The translations under genes and the position numbers were made by a program. Positions 1 to 28,510 of a stretch of 30,772 bases of DNA are shown here, one piece after another (the first letter of the stretch is position 1; every line of letters starts with the position of its first letter). A model generated the notes under the pieces. It was given only the letters and a program-made list of their open reading frames with translations. It did not search any database and was not told the origin of the DNA. Location of the stretch: the sequence record MN688132.1; one strand, given 5' to 3'. The DNA is from Enterobacter phage LAU1.

Positions 1-3308
<3,308 letters not shown>

Positions 3309-3316
3309 ATGTTATT

Positions 3317-3357
3317 AATCAGCCAGTTAACTTTGTTTTTCTGGCTGATTTTATTGT
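3317..3357 (+). terminator. Rho-independent terminator of yeaH
   Basis: AATCAGCCAG ... CTGGCTGATT is a 10-bp stem with a long loop, followed by TTTATTGTATTTTC. Confidence 0.55.
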
Positions 3358-3512
3358 ATTTTCATCCTCATTTTTCTCCATGTTTTTCATTCACTTAAAT
3401 TTTATTTTGGGGAATGCGATTTTGTAGAAGTGATTATGCAAAACTTCCTTTGGGCTTTAGGATGCCATCATGGGATGGAGGTTAAAATTCTCTCGTTCCG
3501 ACCAAACCACAC

Positions 3513-3541
3513 AAAAAAACCAGCCGCTTATGGCTGGTTAT
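3513..3541 (-). terminator. Rho-independent terminator closing the last prophage operon
   Basis: The minus strand reads CCAGCC-ATAAGC-GGCTGG followed by TTTTTTTG. It lies 28 bp downstream of the stop of the 3569..3889 gene. Confidence 0.65.
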
Positions 3542-3568
3542 TCGTCAGTGAAGCATGGGGAACTTTAT

Positions 3569-3889
3569 CTATATTGCAGGGCAATCATCATCTAATGCAC
3601 GATTGATGAAGAACGTCACTCTGCCCAACACTTCCACCTCATCCAGAGCGGCTCCTTCTATTGCCTCGCCATCATCCGTGATCAATGACTTACCCATCAG
3701 TTTTGCAAACTGCGTGTGGCCGTCGCACAAAATTAACAATACATCTCCTGGCCTTTTTTTCGTGGCTGGCTCAATGACTGCAAACCCAACATCTGTTTCA
3801 AGCACCCTGCTTTCGGCCCCTATGTTGCACAGAACGGATGGAGAAAGTTGGCGTTCGACGTAATCGGTAGCAGGTGATGCAAATCCCAT
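3569..3889 (-). CDS. UmuD'-like (P1 HumD-like) protein. It begins at the Gly that follows the UmuD Cys-Gly autocleavage site and has no GDSM Ser nucleophile
   Basis: The 106-aa product MGFASPATDYVERQLSPSVL aligns to E. coli UmuD residues 25-44 (GFPSPAADYVEQRIDLNQLL), i.e. the N-terminus of processed UmuD'. GDVLLILCDGHTQFAKLMGK aligns to UmuD [20 protein letters not shown] (the Lys region). No S-M or G-D-S motif occurs anywhere in the protein. A strong SD (GGGAGG) sits 8 nt before the ATG. Its start overlaps the upstream gene's stop as TGATG. Confidence 0.6.
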   Translation of the reverse strand: MGFASPATDYVERQLSPSVLCNIGAESRVLETDVGFAVIEPATKKRPGDVLLILCDGHTQFAKLMGKSLITDDGEAIEGAALDEVEVLGRVTFFINRALDDDCPAI

Positions 3890-4128
3890 CAGAGGACCCT
3901 CCCCATGTTACGCAGGATCCAGTACCGGTTATCACTACCGTCTGTCGTCTTGTCAGCGAAGCCTGGCTGATTGCGCTCTATCCATGCATTGGCGTCGGCT
4001 CGGGTGAAGTGCCAGTTAAAACCACGCAACTTTTCTATAAAGCTGTCTGTTCTCAGGTAGCGGTAGCCCTTTGGGTTAAGCTCTATGGCCGCAATAAAGG
4101 CGGCCTGAATATCTGAAATTCGGGGCAT
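3889..4128 (-). CDS. Hypothetical 79-aa protein, first gene of the SOS-box-controlled moron
   Basis: MPRISDIQAAFIAAIELNPKGYRYL...RNMGRVL. The ATG at 4126-4128 is preceded by AAGGGAG at 8-nt spacing. The ORF-track start at 4173 is a TTG lying inside the LexA box/promoter and is rejected. No family recognised. Confidence 0.5.
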   Translation of the reverse strand: MPRISDIQAAFIAAIELNPKGYRYLRTDSFIEKLRGFNWHFTRADANAWIERNQPGFADKTTDGSDNRYWILRNMGRVL

Positions 4129-4146
4129 AATCTGCACTCCCTTTAT

Positions 4147-4166
4147 TACTGTGTTTATATACAGTA
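4147..4166 (-). promoter_or_regulatory. LexA (SOS) box with overlapping sigma70 promoter for the 4128..3569 operon
   Basis: TACTGT-GTTTATAT-ACAGTA is CTGT-N8-ACAG with fully palindromic 6-bp arms, and 6 of 8 central bases match the TACTG(TA)5CAGTA consensus. It sits 3 bp upstream of the SD. Candidate -35 TTGAAA (minus strand) lies 17 bp from an AGTAAT -10, which places the box in the spacer/-10 region. Confidence 0.65.
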
Positions 4167-4210
4167 GTTTCAAATGGAATGCAGATCAATTTGGGTTCGC
4201 CTATTAATTT

Positions 4211-5593
4211 TTAAGGCTGAATGTCCCCAGGCTGCTCTGTCAGTTCAAGAGAAGCTTCGGAAGCTCTTGTTTTCCAGATGCTATCCTCTGGCATATCGAG
4301 GCGAACGTCGATCCAGCTGTTGGCCGGAACATCCATAGGAGCCCCTTTTGTTTTGACGATCTCCCCTTCATCGCTCAGCATGTATTTCCGCTTAAAAAGC
4401 CGAATCGTCAGCCCACCGCTTTCTGTCTGCTCTGCTTCAACAACACCCAGCTCTCCCATTCCACCCGGGTCCATTGGCGGGAGCAATTGCCAACCTTCTG
4501 ATGCCAGGCCTGCCGAGCCGATAAGAACATAAACCCCAACATCCAGCCGCGAGATTTTGATCCCTTCAGCCTCGGCGTTCGCCGTACCGCAGCCGCACCA
4601 GGTGAAGCCTACTTCGTCAACATCGGTACGCTGGTTCTCTTCCTGAGATTTTACGATTCTGGCGATCGGAGATGCAGCCTTGAGCGTTCCGTCACTGGCT
4701 TTCGTGGTGTTCTGCGTCGAATAAATGGTGTGCGTCGTGGAGAACCCTACGTTAGCATTGCCCTGAATTGTACCGTTGCCCTGACGGTACTTCAGTCCCT
4801 GAGAGGTTGAGGCAAGCTGCCACGACACATAGCCACCAGCAGAAAAATCATGCCACCCACGTAGCGTCAACATACCCGTGTAGGTGTCTGCCCCGCTACC
4901 GCCACCCCAGCCACTTCCTCCAAGCTGTATGCCAAAAGACATACCGAGCGGGTACTGGGATATAGCGTCGTAAGGGCCGATATTGCGATAATCGCGATGG
5001 CATTGCGCCATGACAGCAGCTCCGTTTAGATACGCGGAACCTGGGGAAAACTGGCTATCAACGTCTCGTGTAGCGCTGTTTCCTAAACCGAGTTTTGTGC
5101 GAGCGTCAGCGGCATTCTTTGCCCCGGTCCCTCCCTGCTCAATGCTGAGAGCTGTTTTCAGCCCAGAAAGGCTGGTAATGTCGCTGTTATCCCCTTTCTT
5201 CGCCAGAGATTTTTGACCCGGCACGGTAACGACAGTGCCGTTGATAGTGATGGTGACATCAGATGTCCCGTTCATTACATCAGCGAACCCGCTCATGTAG
5301 CGCTGGTACATCGTGAAGGTTTCAGCGATATCCTGCGCCAGACCATCCACGCTCAGACTGTCACTCAGAAGAATGGCAAATCGGGTTCCGGCGGGAACAG
5401 TTGGGTTAGCTGCTGGCGTTACGGTGAGACTTGTTGCGCTGCCGATGGTGGTAATCTGAAATACCTGCACAGGGCTGGTCATTGCAATAACGGTACATCC
5501 GTTACGAATAAGAGATCCAGCAGCAGTGAAGTTTGTGCCGGTACCTGTAAGGGTATTTCCGCTGATGGCGATAGTGCCAGTAGTATAAATCAT
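4211..5593 (-). CDS. Phage side tail fibre protein
   Basis: The ATG at 5591-5593 is preceded by GGAGAAAAC. The N-terminus MIYTTGTIAISGNTLTGTGTNF is the typical conserved tail-fibre N-terminus. The sequence is Gly/Ser/Thr-rich with beta-rich repeats and a variable C-terminal domain. Confidence 0.85.
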   Translation of the reverse strand: MIYTTGTIAISGNTLTGTGTNFTAAGSLIRNGCTVIAMTSPVQVFQITTIGSATSLTVTPAANPTVPAGTRFAILLSDSLSVDGLAQDIAETFTMYQRYMSGFADVMNGTSDVTITINGTVVTVPGQKSLAKKGDNSDITSLSGLKTALSIEQGGTGAKNAADARTKLGLGNSATRDVDSQFSPGSAYLNGAAVMAQCHRDYRNIGPYDAISQYPLGMSFGIQLGGSGWGGGSGADTYTGMLTLRGWHDFSAGGYVSWQLASTSQGLKYRQGNGTIQGNANVGFSTTHTIYSTQNTTKASDGTLKAASPIARIVKSQEENQRTDVDEVGFTWCGCGTANAEAEGIKISRLDVGVYVLIGSAGLASEGWQLLPPMDPGGMGELGVVEAEQTESGGLTIRLFKRKYMLSDEGEIVKTKGAPMDVPANSWIDVRLDMPEDSIWKTRASEASLELTEQPGDIQP

Positions 5594-5608
5594 GTTTTCT
5601 CCAGGCAA

Positions 5609-5955: not shown

Positions 5956-5997
5956 GATAGATCAATTATTCAAAATTGATCGCTAAAAACGATCAAT
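5956..5997 (-). promoter_or_regulatory. Inverted-repeat operator / promoter region with three GATC (Dam) sites upstream of the lipoprotein gene
   Basis: TTGATAGATCAA is a near-palindrome. ATTGATCG-CTAAAAA-CGATCAAT is a perfect 8-bp inverted repeat. GATC occurs at 5960, 5978 and 5991. A candidate -35 TTGAAT (minus strand) overlaps these sites. Confidence 0.35.
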
Positions 5998-6664
5998 CAT
6001 AATTGGCGCAGTTAATGGCCATAATCACGTTCCTCAGATTCGAATACGTAACGTTCTGAAGGTTGCCACCGGGGGTTGTCTGCGGCCTGGCGAATATCCG
6101 CGTATTGCTTCCCTCAAGTTTTGCCAAGCTCTTGTATATAGCCGAGTATGGCTGCGGTTGACCGCCAGCCGATACAACCCCGGTAATTAGCCCCAGCATG
6201 GCAGGCATGCAGGCCCACTTCCCCGCCAGAGTTGTATTGATGTTGTATCCTGAGCTGGCATCCACCCCGGCGGTACCGAGGGTGACAACATCACTCAGCG
6301 TGCGCGTTTCGTTTGTTAAAATCAGCGTCCCTGATGCATCCCACACAGCCAGCCCGTAGTCTGGCTTTGTCTGCGGGAAAATAGAGAAAAAATAAACGTA
6401 CGCTGTGCCGGTTGCATTCGGTCTGAGAAAATCAATCGTGATGGTGTTCCCGCTTATCGTCTGAGTGATTTCGACCTCTACCGTGCAATGAACGAAGGCG
6501 ACAACAGGCTGACCTGCGGGGAATGTGTGCGTCACTCTGGTATTAAACCCCGATGTTCCCTGAAGTGCCGCTGTCTTTCGTTCCTGTAGAGCGATTGGCG
6601 AGCTGTTCGCGGTCACCCATACTTCCCCGCTGGTCGTCGTCAGTAAAACGCCATACTCCGCCAT
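5993..6664 (-). CDS. Hypothetical phage tail-region protein (MAEYG family, 223 aa)
   Basis: Protein-like ORF that is tightly packed after its paralog (TAAATG). The N-terminus MAEYGVLL and an internal YGLAVWDASGTL repeat the N-terminus of the preceding gene. Confidence 0.6.
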   Translation of the reverse strand: MAEYGVLLTTTSGEVWVTANSSPIALQERKTAALQGTSGFNTRVTHTFPAGQPVVAFVHCTVEVEITQTISGNTITIDFLRPNATGTAYVYFFSIFPQTKPDYGLAVWDASGTLILTNETRTLSDVVTLGTAGVDASSGYNINTTLAGKWACMPAMLGLITGVVSAGGQPQPYSAIYKSLAKLEGSNTRIFARPQTTPGGNLQNVTYSNLRNVIMAINCANYD

Positions 6665-6979
6665 TTATGCCCTCTCGATCTGGAAAATGAGATAAGCCGC
6701 TGCCGCAGGCTCAGTCCCTGCTGAGTAGTCGGTATCGCCTGCTGCTGACACTGTTGCGGTTCCCCCTGAAATGGTGATCTTCCTCCGACTCGTACCAAAC
6801 TGATCGCCGTTCATGCTCTGAAAATAGGTCAGCCTGCAACCCGGTGGAAGCGCTACGGTGTAAGAGCCTGTTTTCTGGTTCTGGGCCAGCTGGAGATAGC
6901 CACAAACGCTGACAGGCTTAACGCCATAGTTATTTACATTGCCTGAGGCGTCCCATGTCTGAACCCCATATTCCGCCAT
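6665..6979 (-). CDS. Hypothetical phage tail-region protein (MAEYG family, 104 aa)
   Basis: The start at 6979 (MAEYGVQTWDASG) is preceded by AGGAGG. The ORF-track 5' extension runs through the J terminator hairpin and is rejected. Confidence 0.6.
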   Translation of the reverse strand: MAEYGVQTWDASGNVNNYGVKPVSVCGYLQLAQNQKTGSYTVALPPGCRLTYFQSMNGDQFGTSRRKITISGGTATVSAAGDTDYSAGTEPAAAAYLIFQIERA

Positions 6980-6991
6980 CCAGTCCTCCTG

Positions 6992-7020
6992 AAAAAAAAA
7001 GAGGCCCCGTAAGAGGCCTC
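6992..7020 (-). terminator. Rho-independent terminator immediately after gene J
   Basis: The minus strand reads GAGGCC-TCTTACG-GGCCTC followed by T9, then CAGGAGGACTGG ATG of the next gene. Confidence 0.7.
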
Positions 7021-7023
7021 CCG

Positions 7024-10000
7024 TTACCATGTTCCCGTGATTCTCCCGATCTGCACCCTCAACACATTGTTGGCATCCTTGACACTGATCGTTTGATTAG
7101 TCTGCTTCATGGCTCCCTCACCAGCTGTCGAACCGTAGTTCTCAAACGTACCTCCCTTATCCAGCCTCCATCCGACTGAGCCAGCGACATAGTTATTGGA
7201 CTGGATGTAGTTGCCGATCTTGGCGTTGCTGATGGTGCCCTCACCTATCAGCGCGTCTCTGATGAACACCTGCCCGTTCTGAATAACGAACGGAAGCGTA
7301 ACGGTCGCTCCGGCCTGGTGAGTAACGGCGAAGCGGTCAGCCAGGAAGATAACCTGCGACTGCATGCCGGACGGCGTATTCTCCACGCCGATCCCCATCC
7401 CTGCCGCGTAAAGCTGACCATTGCTGGATAACCCGACCTTGATGCTGTACATCGCCTTCAGGTCGCCGTTGACGTTCGCAATGGCCTGCGCGTTGGTGGT
7501 GATCGCTGAAGTGTGCCCGTTGATGGTCGCCGTGATGCCGTTTATCTGCGTCGCGGTGGCCTGCTGGTAATCGGAGAACGTCTGATTCAGGCTGTTGATG
7601 GATGCCTTGTTGCCGTTCACGTCAGTCTGCAAACTTAGCAGCGAACGTGCTGTTGCCTCCCTGTCGCTTGCCATGACGTTATCAATACGATCGATGCCGG
7701 CCTTGCTGTCACCGTACTGCGCACTGAGTCTCACCCGCTGATCAACCTGCGCCAGCGTACTCGTTATTAGCGCGATAGCGTTATTCTGGATGCCGCCGCT
7801 GGCAGTATCGGTTCTTGCTCCCAGCTCCTCCAGGCGGGATGCCATTGATGAAGTCGTGTCTGTGACAACCTGTCGCAACGTGGTGATATCAGCAGTGTTT
7901 TGTGAGCTGGCTTGTTCAGCCGCATCTGCCTTACCTGATGCAGCATCAGCTTTACTCGAAGCCGAATCAGCTTTATCAGAAATGACCTGAGTGCTCGCAG
8001 TGAGCTGATCAACAGCAGTAGCCCTTGCCTGAGCTTCATCTGACAGAGCCTGCCTTACCTCGGTAACTCCCGCCTCGTTCTGCGCAGTTTTTGCCTCAAG
8101 ACGGGTAACATCCGTTACGCGCGCCTCCGTTTCAGTAGCGATCACCTCCCGGAGCTGTTCGAATGTCGCAGAGTTAGCGCCCTGTTGGGCTGTCTGGCGC
8201 ACGACAACATCGGCAATAGCCAGCGCGTTTCCGATGATTGCTTCAGCGGTCTGCTTGTTCGAGCCAACCGCAGCAGCAAGGCCGTCTGCGTTCTCTTTGA
8301 TTGCATCAGCCAGTTCTGCCAGTTTTCCGCTGCTGTCCACCGCGTTCTCGATCAAGTCTTTGAACGTATCGGAGCCTTTCATGTCCTCCAGGATTGCATC
8401 GGTGATATCGGATACATCAATGCTGGCCTGCCCGCGCACCCATTCTGTGTAACCTGATTCGTTGCCGCTGCGGTCCACCAGCTGCGCGCGATACCAGAAA
8501 ATCTGCCCCGCTTTAAGGCCCATCTGCTGATACTTGCGCTGCGGATAGGGTACGTCTGCCAGCAGCATCGCATCGTCTTCCGTCCCGGTCAGACTGTACT
8601 GAATTTCCGTCTTCAGCGTGTCGTCGGTGTTCGCCGGGAATCCCCAGCTCAGCTCGATACCGAATACCACATTATCGGAAGCGATGAAGCCGACCGGTTT
8701 CGGCGGATTGCCCACTTTACCCGTAAGATTCGCTTCTGATGATGTCGCCCAGACTGATGAAACGTCGCTGGCGTTCACCGCCCTGACGCGGACCAGATAG
8801 CGACCCGAGTAGATACCCTGTACTTCAAAGCCGAGAGAAGACGTTCGGGGAACGCTTACCCAGTTGCCGCTGTCACGCCGCCATTCCGCCTCGTACGCAA
8901 CTGCACCCTGAACAGAATCCCAGGCAACGCGCATGGTGGTAATCGCAATGTTCTGGTTAACCGTAGAGTAACTGTCTACGACAATATTTCCTGGGGGAGC
9001 CTGAACCCCCGGTGGAATGACACTGACTGGCCGCTCGTCCAGTCTTGCGCCGGTATCAACAGCGGAATAGATATCAGGGTTGTAAGTCGTCCCGGTGACC
9101 TCGAAAGTTCCGTCGTTGTTGTCCCGCGTTCCCGTAACACGGAAAAGCGCTATAAACAGATCGTCAGAGTCCACGCCCCAGTTACATTCAGCCTCCGGCG
9201 TTTCGCTGTAGGGTGTGGTGACAGTGACTGTGTTTCCGTTAACGGCCTGGACGGTTCTGGCCTGAGCCGTGCCTGATGGAAGATTCAAAAACAGCCTGTT
9301 ACCGGCTTTCACATCAGCAGCGCGATCGAGGGTTATGTTGCGGCCGTTAACCGCGCTCACCCTGCCGCCGATAGTTCTTCCGGCCAGCTCGTTAGCAGCC
9401 ACACCGATCACCTCCCCGACAGGGGGAACGTCCATGCCCGTGCTGAAGGTCACCACCTCGCCGATACCGTTAGTAAGCAGCGCCCAGCGCCCCCGACGGT
9501 TTGCCTCTGACTGCCTGGTGCAGCCGATCGCAGTCATTTCGAGCTGACGATAATCGAAGCGCATGGCCAGATCGTTATCGTAAACAGGCTCAGGCGTGTC
9601 TTTGTAGTGGTTAGCTGGGTCAGACCAGTTCACCAGCGCGGCAGTGTTTCGGGTGGTTTCACTCGGGTCCGAAAAGGTAAATTTACCCTCAACTACGCTG
9701 GCGTGGTTATAGATATGCCACACATCGCGGGGCATATCAGCCAGGACATACATCTTATTGTCACCCCAGTACGTCATGCCGCGAAATATACCCGCCAGAT
9801 CACGAAGTACAGTCCAGGCGTCATTACGGTCCTGGATATAAACGTTGCAACGAAAACGAGGCTCCGTCCCACTTCCGCCCTTGCCATCTGGTACCAGTTG
9901 ATCGCAATACTGGGCGATGCGATAAAGCTCCCATTTGTCTATCTGAGTCGCATCAATTCTTTGACCCAGCCCGAAGCGCTCGTTCAGAATGATGTCGTAA

Positions 10001-24571: not shown

Positions 24572-25057
24572 TTATCCGTGCTTGGGAAAGGCGATCAGGT
24601 TGTCGTCCTGGTCCTGATGCTCGTTTTTGGTATTTCGTGCATCACGATCATTCTGATTGCGTTTCTTCTGGTCGCGGCTTTCGCCGTTGGTTGCGTGGGA
24701 ATGGATCTGGAGGTCACGGCGCTGAGCCAGGATAGTTCGTTGTAGCTCAACAATTTGCTTGCGGAGGTCTTTGATAAGGCCTTCGTCTCGCTCCTCCCCG
24801 CGTATACGCTCTTCTTTACGTAAATCTTTGCGTAAAACGGTGATATAGAGCTGATTATTAGCCAGTTCTACGGCGGCCAGCAGGTCGGCAGGCGTCCAGC
24901 TGTCCAGAGCTTTCGATCTGATATTGTCATGCCAGAATGGTTCGGCTTTTTTCTCCAAACCTGCATGGGACGGCGGATCGATGGTGTCCACAGCTGCATT
25001 TTTCATGGCCTGAACCGCTGCCGCCGAACTGTCGGAACGGGTTCGTTTATCTGCCAT
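24572..25057 (-). CDS. terS: Terminase small subunit, P27 family
   Basis: 161 aa with a basic/acidic C-terminus. It sits immediately upstream of terL, with an AAGGTG SD. Confidence 0.8.
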   Translation of the reverse strand: MADKRTRSDSSAAAVQAMKNAAVDTIDPPSHAGLEKKAEPFWHDNIRSKALDSWTPADLLAAVELANNQLYITVLRKDLRKEERIRGEERDEGLIKDLRKQIVELQRTILAQRRDLQIHSHATNGESRDQKKRNQNDRDARNTKNEHQDQDDNLIAFPKHG

Positions 25058-25724: not shown

Positions 25725-26987
25725 ATGATTAATAAAATTGATTTCAAAGCTAAGAATCTAACATCAAATGCAGGTCTTTTTCTGCTCCTTGAGAATGCAA
25801 AAAGCAATGGGATTTTTGATTTTATTGAAAATGACCTCGTATTTGATAATGACTCAACAAATAAAATCAAGATGAATCATATAAAGACCATGCTCTGCGG
25901 TCACTTCATTGGCATTGATAAGTTAGAACGTCTAAAGCTACTTCAAAATGATCCCCTCGTCAACGAGTTTGATATTTCCGTAAAAGAACCTGAAACAGTG
26001 TCACGGTTTCTAGGAAACTTCAACTTCAAGACAACCCAAATGTTTAGAGACATTAATTTTAAAGTCTTTAAAAAACTGCTCACTAAAAGTAAATTGACAT
26101 CCATTACGATTGATATTGATAGTAGTGTAATTAACGTAGAAGGTCATCAAGAAGGTGCGTCAAAAGGATATAATCCTAAGAAACTGGGAAACCGATGCTA
26201 CAATATCCAATTTGCATTTTGCGACGAATTAAAAGCATATGTTACCGGATTTGTAAGAAGTGGCAATACTTACACTGCAAACGGTGCTGCGGAAATGATC
26301 AAAGAAATTGTTGCTAACATCAAATCAGACGATTTAGAAATTTTATTTCGAATGGATAGTGGCTACTTTGATGAAAAAATTATCGAAACGATAGAATCTC
26401 TTGGATGCAAATATTTAATTAAAGCCAAAAGTTATTCTACACTCACCTCACAAGCAACGAATTCATCAATTGTATTCGTTAAAGGAGAAGAAGGTAGAGA
26501 AACTACAGAACTGTATACAAAATTAGTTAAATGGGAAAAAGACAGAAGATTTGTCGTATCTCGCGTACTGAAACCAGAAAAAGAAAGAGCACAATTATCA
26601 CTTTTAGAAGGTTCCGAATACGACTACTTTTTCTTTGTAACAAATACTACCTTGCTTTCTGAAAAAGTAGTTATATACTATGAAAAGCGTGGTAATGCTG
26701 AAAACTATATCAAAGAAGCCAAATACGACATGGCGGTGGGTCATCTCTTGCTAAAGTCATTTTGGGCGAATGAAGCCGTGTTTCAAATGATGATGCTTTC
26801 ATATAACCTATTTTTGTTGTTCAAGTTTGATTCCTTGGACTCTTCAGAATACAGACAGCAAATAAAGACCTTTCGTTTGAAGTATGTATTTCTTGCAGCA
26901 AAAATAATCAAAACCGCAAGATATGTAATCATGAAGTTGTCGGAAAACTATCCGTACAAGGGAGTGTATGAAAAATGTCTGGTATAA
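25725..26987 (+). CDS. tnpA: ISEcp1 transposase
   Basis: MINKIDFKAKNLTSNAGLFLLLENAKSNGIFDF ... is an IS1380-family DDE transposase of 420 aa. Confidence 0.95.
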   Translation: MINKIDFKAKNLTSNAGLFLLLENAKSNGIFDFIENDLVFDNDSTNKIKMNHIKTMLCGHFIGIDKLERLKLLQNDPLVNEFDISVKEPETVSRFLGNFNFKTTQMFRDINFKVFKKLLTKSKLTSITIDIDSSVINVEGHQEGASKGYNPKKLGNRCYNIQFAFCDELKAYVTGFVRSGNTYTANGAAEMIKEIVANIKSDDLEILFRMDSGYFDEKIIETIESLGCKYLIKAKSYSTLTSQATNSSIVFVKGEEGRETTELYTKLVKWEKDRRFVVSRVLKPEKERAQLSLLEGSEYDYFFFVTNTTLLSEKVVIYYEKRGNAENYIKEAKYDMAVGHLLLKSFWANEAVFQMMMLSYNLFLLFKFDSLDSSEYRQQIKTFRLKYVFLAAKIIKTARYVIMKLSENYPYKGVYEKCLV

Positions 26988-27090
26988 TAAGAATATCATC
27001 AATAAAATTGAGTGTTGCTCTGTGGATAACTTGCAGAGTTTATTAAGTATCATTGCAGCAAAGATGAAATCAATGATTTATCAAAAATGA

Positions 27091-27120
27091 TTGAAAGGTG
27101 GTTGTAAATAATGTTACAAT
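27091..27120 (+). promoter_or_regulatory. ISEcp1 outward promoter driving blaCTX-M
   Basis: -35 TTGAAA (27091-27096), an 18-bp spacer, and -10 TACAAT (27115-27120) lie just inside the IRR. Confidence 0.7.
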
Positions 27121-27173
27121 GTGTGAGAAGCAGTCTAAATTCTTCGTGAAATAGTGATTTTTGAAGCTAATAA

Positions 27174-28118
<945 letters not shown>

Positions 28119-28164
28119 TAGCGGAAACGGAATGGGGAAACTCATTCCGTTTTTGTTTATCGCC

Positions 28165-28497
28165 TTAGACGGCAAAAGTGCTGTCGCCCACCTGCGCTTG
28201 CGCATACCAGGCCATAAGCTCCGTGGTTCCTGGTTCTCCTTCCGCTGGAGCCCAGTGCGCATAGTCATCGGCAGCCACGGGTTGATAGCCACCGTGTTTT
28301 ACTTCAAAAATTATGCCACCGGTATCCAGCGACAGCACGGCATGCCAGGTTCCTGCGGCCATCTCCAGCACCGTACAGGTTTCCCCCAATATCGCCCGAT
28401 GGGTGACGGTACCCCGATCGTCAAAATTCAGCACCACGAAACGACCCCTTAATGGCAACAGTAGCTCGAAGGTGTGAGGGTGTCGGTGCGGGCGCAC
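28165..28497 (-). pseudogene. wbuC: orf477 / wbuC-family cupin, 5'-truncated (delta-orf477) at the junction with Tn2 DNA
   Basis: MRPHRHPHTFELLLPLRGRFVVLNFDDRG... The cupin-fold ORF is in the usual position convergent with blaCTX-M-15. Upstream of its internal Met the sequence switches to Tn2 tnpA at about 28510. Confidence 0.7.
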
Positions 28498-28510
28498 GTA
28501 GGTCCCAGGT

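What the first reader, a model, noticed from the sequence alone, without database searches (positions are those of the whole stretch)
3569..4210. SOS-box-controlled terminal moron encoding a pre-processed, Ser-less UmuD'/HumD-like protein plus an unknown 79-aa partner
Seen in sequence: after the tail-fibre stop, and before the terminator that marks the prophage end, lies a self-contained module. It has a promoter, a near-consensus LexA box (TACTGT-N8-ACAGTA, 4147-4166) and two translationally coupled genes (TGATG overlap), both with strong SDs. The second product starts M-GFASPATDYVERQL. This aligns with UmuD starting exactly at Gly25, the residue after the RecA*-stimulated Cys24-Gly25 autocleavage site, so the gene encodes an already-activated UmuD' form. 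The later GDVLLILCDGHTQFAKL block aligns with the UmuD Lys97 region. There is no GDSM-type Ser nucleophile anywhere, so it cannot and need not self-cleave. Established knowledge: phage P1 HumD is a precedent for a phage-borne UmuD' homologue that promotes SOS mutagenesis with host UmuC. Inference: here it sits in a lambdoid prophage moron under its own LexA operator with a co-translated partner of no recognisable family. The location, the regulation and the loss of the catalytic Ser suggest a phage accessory that manipulates host translesion synthesis or UmuD/UmuC/RecA interactions during SOS, which is exactly when the prophage is induced. It could form Pol V with host UmuC, or sequester UmuD or UmuC. 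The 79-aa partner could be a novel Pol V or RecA modulator.
Basis: partly seen in the sequence, partly recalled or inferred. Interest (0 to 1): 0.8.

Follow-up and report, generated by a model that had tools for sequence, protein, structure and literature searches.

The report
SOS-regulated mini-HumD prophage operon
At the end of a prophage sits a DNA-damage-switched two-gene operon encoding a shrunken, non-cleaving relative of the mutagenesis protein UmuD'/HumD and a small winged-helix partner; the gene pair is very common in Enterobacter and Klebsiella prophages, and no experimental study of it turned up in the literature searched.

Summary
On the minus strand, between the tail-fibre gene and a terminator, lie a promoter (TTGATC-N17-TACTGT) and a perfect LexA box (4147-4166). 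Two genes follow, joined by a TGATG overlap: 79 aa and 106 aa.

The 106-aa protein is homologous over its full length to HumD/UmuD' (hhalign 99.4%) and has a predicted S24 fold. It starts at the Gly25 equivalent. A 12-residue deletion removes the Ser60 loop, and the Lys97 equivalent is not conserved in its family. It belongs to phrog_3469 and fails the HumD model.

The 79-aa protein (phrog_3893) is confidently predicted as a winged helix with no sequence relatives of known function.

The module is not rare. The same box-79aa-miniHumD operon recurs in 33 of 51 genome loci, at least 573 viral contigs and many isolated phages. True humD genes sit at this position under annotated LexA sites in P1, N15 and phiKO2. 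An armless family member is coupled to a full umuC in some prophages.

Most likely role: an SOS-induced, pre-activated accessory subunit for UmuC-type polymerases. This is inferred, not shown, and the partner's role is open. It is a new variant of a known kind, of moderate interest.

The parts
4184..4189 (-). -35 hexamer TTGATC of the module's promoter
   Evidence: Read from the sequence. Together with the LexA box it is one of only two conserved blocks in an alignment of 27 upstream regions from divergent loci, at a fixed distance of about 17 nt from TACTGT.
4147..4166 (.). LexA box TACTGT-N8-ACAGTA. Its promoter-proximal half (4166-4161 on the minus strand) doubles as the -10 hexamer.
   Evidence: Unique in the window, with 0.04 expected by chance. 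It is found 31-43 nt before the first gene in nearly all related loci despite 31-90% protein identity. LexA binding itself was not tested.
3889..4128 (-). Gene A79: 79-aa protein of phrog_3893, a predicted stand-alone winged-helix domain. A GGGAG Shine-Dalgarno sequence lies at 4137-4141.
3569..3889 (-). Gene U106: 106-aa 'mini-HumD' of phrog_3469. It is a HumD/UmuD'-lineage S24-fold protein that starts at the Gly25 equivalent and lacks the Ser60 loop. It is translationally coupled to A79 by a TGATG overlap.
3508..3539 (-). Intrinsic terminator (8-bp stem, 6-nt loop, T run) that ends the operon at the prophage/host boundary
   Evidence: Terminator scan. The host yeaH-like DUF444 gene ends at 3308.
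4211..5608 (-). Upstream tail-fibre gene (context). No terminator was predicted between its stop and the module.
   Evidence: Pfam Phage_tail_C_2 and phrog_1591 tail fibre. The terminator scan of 3300-4400 found only the site at 3518-3539. Read-through from late transcription is an inference.

Best explanation
This is a LexA-repressed two-gene operon at the tail-fibre end of a lambdoid/HK97-like prophage. When DNA damage inactivates LexA, the promoter TTGATC-N17-TACTGT fires. The LexA box overlaps its -10 hexamer. Two proteins are then made in coupled fashion.

The second protein, U106, is a reduced descendant of the phage HumD branch of UmuD'. It is born already 'activated': after Met removal its N-terminus is the Gly25 equivalent. 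It keeps the invariant GFPSPAxDYVE arm, the S24-type beta body and the HumD-type C-terminal tail. It has lost the catalytic Ser loop, so it neither needs nor can perform RecA*-stimulated self-cleavage.

U106 most likely acts as a UmuD'-like accessory subunit of a UmuC-type Y-family polymerase. In this prophage that would be the host's UmuC, acting in trans, as P1 HumD does. The effect would be to give or tune translesion synthesis as soon as SOS is on.

The first protein, A79, is a small winged-helix domain that probably works with U106, either as an interaction adaptor or as a nucleic-acid-binding helper.

Shown here: the anatomy of the module, homology, predicted folds, conservation of the operator, purifying selection, and linkage of family members to umuC. 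Inferred: LexA control in vivo, UmuC binding, the effect on mutagenesis, and any A79-U106 contact.
For: Regulation:
- A perfect LexA box, unique in the window.
- In 27 divergent upstream regions only the -35 hexamer and the LexA box are conserved.
- The box is present 31-43 nt before the first gene in almost all loci.
- P1 and phiKO2 records annotate LexA sites at the equivalent humD position.

Identity of U106:
- hhalign to HumD/UmuD' 99.4%, E 5e-21, full length.
- The family profile hits UmuD/UmuD' at E 7e-8 / 3e-7 over residues 25-138.
- It shares the C-terminal DDCPxI tail with HumD proteins but not with UmuD.

Function-relevant features:
- The N-arm residues G2 F3 S5 P6 A7 D9 Y10 E12 are invariant in the short family although there is no cleavage to constrain them.
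- Published AlphaFold models place the UmuD' arm in the UmuC palm/little-finger cleft. The same paper notes that armless UmuD' is defective in mutagenesis (PMC11791011).
- A phrog_3469 member is translationally coupled to a full UmuC (869 bits against a cut-off of 431) in phage CobraSix and in 5 genome loci, under the same promoter/LexA-box layout.
- The P1 record states that HumD functionally complements UmuD'.

Both genes are real: median dN/dS is 0.19 and 0.32.

Pairing:
- A79 precedes the short form in 33 of 51 genome loci.
- Among 74 parsed viral contigs, 71 have the short form next and 3 have a true 129-aa HumD. All have the same stop/start overlap.
Against: - There is no experimental evidence for this family in the literature searched.
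- U106 is 23 residues shorter than HumD, fails the HumD NCBIfam model (25 against 120 bits) and the Pfam S24 model, and its structural model is only moderate (pLDDT 76.7). Dimerisation and UmuC binding could have been lost.
- The umuC-linked family members are the armless ones. No arm-bearing member was seen next to umuC, so the linkage argument is indirect. It also conflicts with the reported need for the arm.
- Whether this host has umuC cannot be seen in the window.
- A79's fold is generic. A79 occurs without any UmuD-like gene in HK225, and U106-type genes occur without A79 in about 8 loci, so an obligate complex is not implied.
Confidence: 0.55

Rival explanations
1. SOS modulator or decoy. 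The pair does not build an active polymerase but dampens or re-times host responses. For example, U106 could occupy UmuC or heterodimerise with host UmuD/UmuD' unproductively, or the pair could bind the RecA* filament groove. That last option would resemble the role of the DinI homologue that many relatives encode divergently from the same operator.
For: - The catalytic loop and 23 residues of the HumD body are gone, and the Lys is not conserved.
- dinI shares the LexA box divergently in about 12 loci, which suggests an 'SOS-tuning island'.
- UmuD, LexA, CI and DinI all bind the same RecA groove elements (PMC9926225).
- The arm-bearing form is never adjacent to umuC in the sample.
Against: - The arm that is modelled to reach the UmuC active site is invariant.
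- Close family members are co-transcribed with an intact umuC, which would be odd for an inhibitor.
- P1 HumD, the nearest characterised relative, promotes mutagenesis rather than blocking it (record note).
Confidence: 0.2
2. Regulatory module. A79 is a winged-helix DNA-binding regulator or a LexA-controlled antirepressor, in the manner of 186 Tum, N15 AntC or Gifsy GfoA. It would trigger or coordinate prophage induction, and U106 would be an accessory.
For: - Small LexA-controlled genes outside the immunity region are how the Gifsy, 186 and N15 antirepressors are organised, often together with dinI (PMC3121763).
- A79 has a winged-helix fold, like many transcription factors.
- A79 can stand alone, with a divergent dinI, in HK225.
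Against: - Relatives that carry the module have CI repressors with a Peptidase_S24 domain. These are of the self-cleaving type and need no antirepressor: mEp390 gp37 and HK225 gp46.
- The A79 wing is acidic, and few basic residues are conserved in the third helix (read from alignment A4).
- A79 is almost always coupled to a HumD-lineage gene.
- There is no profile similarity to DinI.
- This prophage's own repressor is outside the window and was not examined.
Confidence: 0.1
3. Decaying remnant. The 106-aa gene is a degraded humD on its way to loss, the 79-aa ORF is fortuitous, and neither has a function.
For: - Loss of the catalytic loop and shortening relative to HumD.
- This prophage is itself disrupted by a resistance transposon at its other side.
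Against: - Median dN/dS is 0.19 and 0.32.
- Length is constant at 105-108 aa across hundreds of 90%-identity clusters in many genera.
- The operator, promoter, Shine-Dalgarno sequences and stop/start overlap are all conserved.
- The module is present in isolated, plaque-forming temperate phages.
Confidence: 0.03

Closest known systems
Phage HumD family (P1 HumD, N15 gp26, phiKO2 gp23, HK140 gp28, HK639 gp28; NCBIfam NF051876, phrog_811)
   Same: - Starts at the UmuD Gly25 equivalent with the same GFPSPAxDYVE arm.
- Has the same C-terminal DDCPxI tail.
- Sits at the same genomic position, directly after the tail-fibre genes, under a LexA box.
- In HK140 and 3 viral contigs a true HumD follows the same 79-aa gene with the same overlap.
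   Different: - 23 residues shorter. A 12-residue deletion removes the Ser/Thr loop and hairpin, and there are further small deletions.
- Scores 25 bits against a cut-off of 120 on the HumD model.
- Forms a separate PHROG family, 3469.
- P1, N15, phiKO2 and HK639 have no 79-aa partner gene.
E. coli UmuD' (Pol V accessory subunit; PDB 1umu)
   Different: - Not made by RecA*-stimulated cleavage of a precursor.
- No Ser60, and Lys97 is not conserved in the family.
- Has an extra C-terminal tail.
- Not encoded next to umuC in this prophage.
Plasmid impCAB-type operons (small SOS protein, then UmuD-like, then UmuC-like, under LexA); from my own knowledge of Lodwick et al. 1990, which is listed among the references of PMC11541004
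   Same: A small gene precedes and overlaps the umuD-like gene in a LexA-controlled operon.
   Different: ImpC is DinI-like (own knowledge). A79 shows no profile similarity to DinI and is predicted as a winged helix. There is no umuC-like gene here.
Armless mini-UmuD + UmuC prophage operon (Enterobacter phage CobraSix gp29-gp30 and loci L052-L054, L060, L061)
   Same: Same PHROG family (E 2e-33), 46% identity over residues 20-106, same TTGATC-N17-LexA box promoter, same position after the tail genes.
   Different: It lacks the GFPSPA arm and the A79 gene, and it carries its own full-length UmuC.
LexA-controlled antirepressor operons (Gifsy dinI-gfoA, 186 tum, N15 antC)
   Same: Small SOS-box genes outside the immunity region of temperate phages, often with dinI nearby.
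   Different: The Gifsy locus lies after the replication genes, not after the tail genes. Relatives of this module have S24-type CI repressors. No sequence relation was found or tested directly.

Membership tests
HumD family (NCBIfam NF051876, equivalog) | Whole-protein score at or above the curated cut-off (120 bits) | tested here: not met
   25 bits, with only residues 1-21 matched. HK140 gp28 and HK639 gp28 score 222 and 215 bits.
HumD family (NCBIfam NF051876, equivalog) | Protein begins at the position of UmuD Gly25 (pre-processed form) with the GFPSPAxDY arm | tested here: met
   Alignments.
HumD family (NCBIfam NF051876, equivalog) | Functionally replaces UmuD' in SOS mutagenesis with UmuC | not testable with these tools
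   Needs genetics. The only indirect evidence is the umuC linkage of armless family members.
Peptidase S24 (LexA/UmuD/CI self-cleaving proteins; Pfam PF00717) | Match to the Pfam model | tested here: not met
   No Pfam hit at E up to 1. The long phage forms do pass.
Peptidase S24 (LexA/UmuD/CI self-cleaving proteins; Pfam PF00717) | Ser-Lys catalytic dyad | tested here: not met
   The Ser loop is deleted. A Lys is present at the aligned position here but is not conserved in the family.
Peptidase S24 (LexA/UmuD/CI self-cleaving proteins; Pfam PF00717) | S24 beta-barrel-like fold | tested here: met
phrog_3469 ('UmuD-like protein', about 106 aa) | Full-length match to the family profile | tested here: met
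   E 1.3e-47, residues 1-105 of a 106-position profile.
SOS (LexA) regulon | Consensus LexA box overlapping the promoter | tested here: met
   TACTGT-N8-ACAGTA with 0 mismatches, overlapping the -10 hexamer. It is conserved across loci.
SOS (LexA) regulon | LexA binding and DNA-damage-inducible transcription | not testable with these tools
   Needs EMSA or footprinting and expression data.
Winged-helix domains (for the 79-aa protein) | H1-S1-H2-H3-S2-S3 topology | tested here: met
Winged-helix domains (for the 79-aa protein) | DNA binding through helix 3 and the wing | not testable with these tools
   The wing is acidic and conserved basic residues are few, so protein binding is equally possible.
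LexA-controlled phage antirepressors (Tum, AntC, GfoA type) | The cognate phage repressor is non-cleavable and is inactivated by the small protein | tested here: inconclusive
   Relatives mEp390 and HK225 have S24-domain CI repressors. This prophage's own repressor is outside the window.
LexA-controlled phage antirepressors (Tum, AntC, GfoA type) | Sequence similarity to a known antirepressor | not tested
   No direct comparison with Tum, AntC or GfoA sequences was made. The Pfam, PHROG and NCBIfam scans gave no such label.

The most novel reading that the evidence does not exclude
The winged-helix protein and the mini-HumD form a dedicated complex that re-programmes host Pol V rather than simply substituting for UmuD'. 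A79 might load or target the catalytically dead, pre-activated subunit onto UmuC, RecA* or DNA. Prophage-bearing Enterobacter and Klebsiella would then gain a RecA-cleavage-independent, SOS-immediate mutagenic or damage-tolerant polymerase, or conversely the phage would shut the host's polymerase down. Either outcome would define a new small regulatory subunit class for Y-family mutasomes carried by very common clinical prophages.
Probability: 0.2. Interest if true: 0.65.

Novelty: new variant of a known kind. Interest (0 to 1): 0.42.

Why it matters
Pol V-type mutagenesis drives stress-induced mutation and the evolution of antibiotic resistance. It is normally delayed by the need for RecA*-stimulated UmuD cleavage. 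A prophage gene that supplies an already-activated UmuD' analogue as soon as LexA is inactivated could remove that delay.

This gene pair is present in very many Klebsiella, Enterobacter, Raoultella and Citrobacter prophages. One 90%-identity cluster alone holds 3,207 member sequences. If it is active with host UmuC, it would be a common and overlooked modifier of SOS mutagenesis in clinical Enterobacterales. Here it sits in a prophage that also carries an inserted blaCTX-M transposon.

The family also offers a natural minimal UmuD'. It has the arm, the core and the tail but no protease loop, which is useful for dissecting what UmuC really needs. It comes with a conserved winged-helix partner of unknown role.

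If it turns out to be a plain HumD equivalent, the finding is routine annotation.

Tried and rejected
- Antirepressor idea (Gifsy, 186 or N15 type). I read PMC3121763. The Gifsy locus is elsewhere in the genome, and relatives of this module have S24-type CI repressors. Kept only as a low-probability rival.
- A79 as a piece or relative of UmuC. Some records call it 'DNA polymerase V'. hhalign probability is 0.1%, so this is a misannotation.
- A79 as a DinI/ImpC analogue by homology. hhalign probability is 0.1%, and the predicted topology differs.
- Defence-system membership. There are no PADLOC hits.
- Searches for a characterised relative of A79 all found only the family itself or generic winged-helix folds. 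These were an exhaustive HMMER run over 1.84 billion representatives (93 hits, all small proteins, fragments or noisy fusions), PDB sequence and profile searches, and BFVD Foldseek.
- The first attempts to seed locus searches with very diverse alignments failed for lack of conserved stretches. They were repeated with narrower alignments.
- The McLenigan 1999 HumD paper is not held. Statements about HumD function therefore rest on the P1 GenBank note and my own knowledge.
- Literature searches found no experimental study of the short family or of the 79-aa protein.
Full report
**Anatomy**

The module lies on the minus strand.
- The tail-fibre gene (4211-5608; Pfam Phage_tail_C_2, phrog_1591) is followed by a -35 hexamer TTGATC (4189-4184).
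- Seventeen bases later comes the palindrome TACTGTATATAAACACAGTA (4166-4147). Its first half can serve as the -10 hexamer.
- This is a perfect TACTGT-N8-ACAGTA LexA box and the only one in the window. With one mismatch allowed, 0.04 are expected by chance.
- A GGGAG Shine-Dalgarno sequence precedes a 79-aa gene (4128-3889, here called A79).
- The A79 stop overlaps the start of a 106-aa gene (3889-3569, here called U106) as TGATG, and U106 has its own GGGGAGGG.
- A stem-loop with a T run at 3539-3508 ends the unit.
- Host genes of PrkA/YeaG and DUF444/YeaH type occupy 1-3308, so the module is at the prophage edge.
- No terminator was predicted between the tail-fibre stop and the module. Late transcripts may therefore also read into it. 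This is an inference.

**What U106 is**

- Single-sequence searches see only the first 20 residues as UmuD/HumD-like: NCBIfam HumD 25 bits against a cut-off of 120, no Pfam hit, and PDB UmuD at E 0.25.
- The protein is a full-length member of phrog_3469, 'UmuD-like protein' (E 1e-47).
- A profile of its family aligns end to end with HumD/UmuD' (hhalign 99.4%, E 5e-21).
- The same profile hits E. coli UmuD and UmuD' at E 7e-8 and 3e-7 over residues 25-138, with one 12-residue gap exactly at DSMIDGGISDGD.
- The alignment with P1 HumD, N15 gp26, phiKO2 gp23, HK140 gp28 and HK639 gp28 shows three features shared with the HumD branch. These are the Met-Gly start at the Gly25 equivalent, the GFPSPAxDYVE arm, and a C-terminal DDCPxI tail that UmuD lacks.
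- HumD proteins themselves have a degenerate nucleophile. P1 has Ser; the other four have Thr.
- The short family has deleted the whole loop. Its Lys97 equivalent, present here as FAKL, is not conserved among relatives.
- U106 is therefore a reduced, non-catalytic, 'born-activated' offshoot of the HumD lineage. It is not a HumD member by the curated model.
- It is under purifying selection (median dN/dS 0.32).

**What A79 is**

- It belongs to phrog_3893, of unknown function.
- It has no Pfam, NCBIfam, PADLOC or PDB sequence relatives.
- An exhaustive HMMER pass over 1.84 billion representatives found only 93 clusters. These are essentially stand-alone proteins of about 79 aa, fragments, or frameshift-like fusions.
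- With a 37-sequence alignment, AlphaFold2 gives a very confident model (pLDDT 95.7, pTM 0.84) with helix-strand-helix-helix-strand-strand order.
- The fold is generic. The wing is acidic and few basic residues are conserved, so DNA binding is not established.
- A79 shows no profile relation to UmuC or DinI. The label 'DNA polymerase V' given to its homologues in two Erwinia phage records is therefore unfounded.
- Median dN/dS is 0.19.

**Distribution and context**

- The same pair sits between the tail-fibre gene and attP/int in isolated temperate phages of Escherichia, Klebsiella, Enterobacter, Erwinia, Cronobacter and Pantoea. Examples are mEp390, Flotzy, RothD, vB_EhrS_59, phiES15, AH07 and Midgardsormr38.
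- In 51 loci from one-genome-per-species Enterobacterales, four arrangements appear:
  - 33 have A79 directly before the short UmuD-like gene.
  - About 8 have the short gene alone behind the LexA box.
  - 5 have an armless short gene coupled to umuC.
  - The rest are fragments.
- IMG/VR holds at least 573 contigs with A79. Of 74 parsed, 71 continue with the short form and 3 with a genuine 129-aa HumD, always with the same stop/start overlap.
- HK140 also pairs A79 with a true HumD (222 bits on the HumD model).
- HK225 has A79 alone.
- P1, N15, phiKO2 and HK639 have HumD alone.
- dinI is transcribed divergently from the same operator in about a dozen loci.
- The top protein hits for both genes are named mostly from the Enterobacter cloacae complex, which is probably the host here.

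**Regulation**

An alignment of 27 distinct upstream regions, from loci whose proteins are 31-90% identical, conserves only two blocks. These are TTGATC and, about 17 nt later, TACTGTAT..ATACAGT. The box lies 31-43 nt before the first start codon almost everywhere. The armless umuC-linked operon of CobraSix has the same layout. The P1 and phiKO2 records annotate LexA sites at the equivalent humD promoters. LexA control is therefore a conserved, selected feature, although binding was not tested here.

**Mechanism**

The best-supported reading is that U106 is a UmuD'-like accessory factor for UmuC-type polymerases that becomes available as soon as LexA is inactivated. Three arguments support this.
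1. The N-terminal arm is the most invariant part of the family (G2 F3 S5 P6 A7 D9 Y10 E12), although no cleavage site has to be maintained. Published AlphaFold models of the Pol V mutasome insert exactly this arm into the UmuC palm/little-finger cleft, next to the active site. The same paper notes that an armless UmuD' dimerises but is defective in mutagenesis, and it has the UmuC C-terminus pair with the UmuD' body (PMC11791011; also PMC12926913).
2. Members of the same PHROG family are translationally coupled to an intact UmuC (869 bits against 431; IMS, IMS_C and DUF4113 domains) in CobraSix and five genomes.
3. The closest characterised relative, P1 HumD, is recorded as complementing UmuD' (also my own knowledge of McLenigan et al. 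1999, which could not be read).

There are also weak points.
- The umuC-linked members are precisely the ones without the arm. This is unexplained and sits uneasily with argument 1.
- The body has lost a hairpin, and the structural model is only moderate.
- The host's umuC is not visible in the window.
- A79's contribution is unknown.

I put 0.55 on this explanation as a whole. The regulatory and homology parts are much firmer than the functional part.

**Rivals**

- A decoy or SOS-tuning role (0.2) fits the loss of catalytic parts and the dinI neighbourhood. It fits poorly with the umuC coupling and the invariant arm.
- A regulatory or antirepressor role for A79 (0.1) is weakened because relatives carrying the module have S24-domain, self-cleaving-type CI repressors. 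The Gifsy-type locus also sits elsewhere.
- Decay without function (0.03) is contradicted by the selection and conservation data.

**Comparison and novelty**

The general idea is established. A phage-borne, pre-processed UmuD' under a LexA box just after the tail genes is known from P1 HumD and is annotated in N15, phiKO2 and the HK/mEp phages. The short family is already labelled 'UmuD-like' in PHROGs and in many records.

Two things appear undescribed in the literature I could search. One is the short, loop-deleted, dyad-less form as a distinct, very abundant family. The other is its near-constant coupling to a winged-helix protein.

I rate it a new variant of a known kind, with interest of about 0.4. 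It is not surprising in principle. It is potentially relevant to SOS mutagenesis in clinical Enterobacterales, and it is a useful natural minimal UmuD'.

Noticed in passing
window 25725-30772 (next to the terminase small subunit gene at 24572-25057): An IS1380-family transposase (ISEcp1-like, 25725-26987), a CTX-M family beta-lactamase gene (27183-28118; 627 bits against a cut-off of 570), a 106-aa ORF and a Tn3-family transposase fragment (28757 to the window end) abut the prophage's packaging genes. A resistance transposition unit therefore seems to have inserted into, and possibly truncated, this chromosomal prophage.
   Followed up: partly
L011 1700-3338 (Enterobacter phage CobraSix); also L052, L053, L054, L060, L061: A phrog_3469 member without the GFPSPA arm (it starts MEAKAQRYRLEQLC, with in-frame stops upstream) is translationally coupled to a full-length UmuC, behind the same TTGATC-N17-LexA box promoter. 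An armless UmuD' is reported to be defective in E. coli, so how this pair works is unexplained.
   Followed up: partly
L002 2434-3072 (phage HK225): The 79-aa family member stands alone, divergent from dinI. It is followed by a DNA invertase gene instead of a UmuD-like gene, so the winged-helix protein is not strictly tied to a UmuD' partner.
   Followed up: no
L001, L004, L005, L012, L028, L038, L041, L042 (upstream of the module): A dinI homologue is transcribed divergently and shares the single LexA box with the A79-U106 operon, forming a small 'SOS island' after the tail-fibre gene. The window's prophage lacks dinI.
   Followed up: partly
window 3569-3590 (C-terminal residues of the 106-aa protein); alignment A6: A C-terminal DDCPxI-type tail is shared by the HumD proteins and the short family but is absent from UmuD. 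It is disordered in the model (pLDDT below 50) and looks like a short linear motif for an unknown partner or protease. A Cys at residue 21 is invariant in the sampled arm-bearing short-family members (A5).
   Followed up: no
L007 1801-2043, L010 1559-2124, L009 1786-2124: Public records mislabel these genes. The 79-aa homologue is called 'DNA polymerase V' in two Erwinia phages. The mini-HumD is called 'repressor protein CI' or 'repressor protein' in Midgardsormr38 and AH07.
   Followed up: yes
L065 2513-3196 (Erwinia phage vB_EhrS_59): This phage, which carries the module, also encodes an SRAP (YedK-like) SOS-response-associated peptidase in its early region. A 2026 survey (PMC12926913) links SRAP-like proteins to UmuC-like polymerases.
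   Followed up: no
L006 2369-3415 (Klebsiella phage RothD): A 348-aa protein with a glycine-rich domain (Pfam Gly_rich_2) follows the mini-HumD gene directly in this Klebsiella phage. It is absent from the window.
   Followed up: no
window 5993-7030: Two minus-strand ORFs (223 aa and 121 aa) lie between the large J-like tail gene and the tail-fibre gene and have no Pfam match.
   Followed up: no
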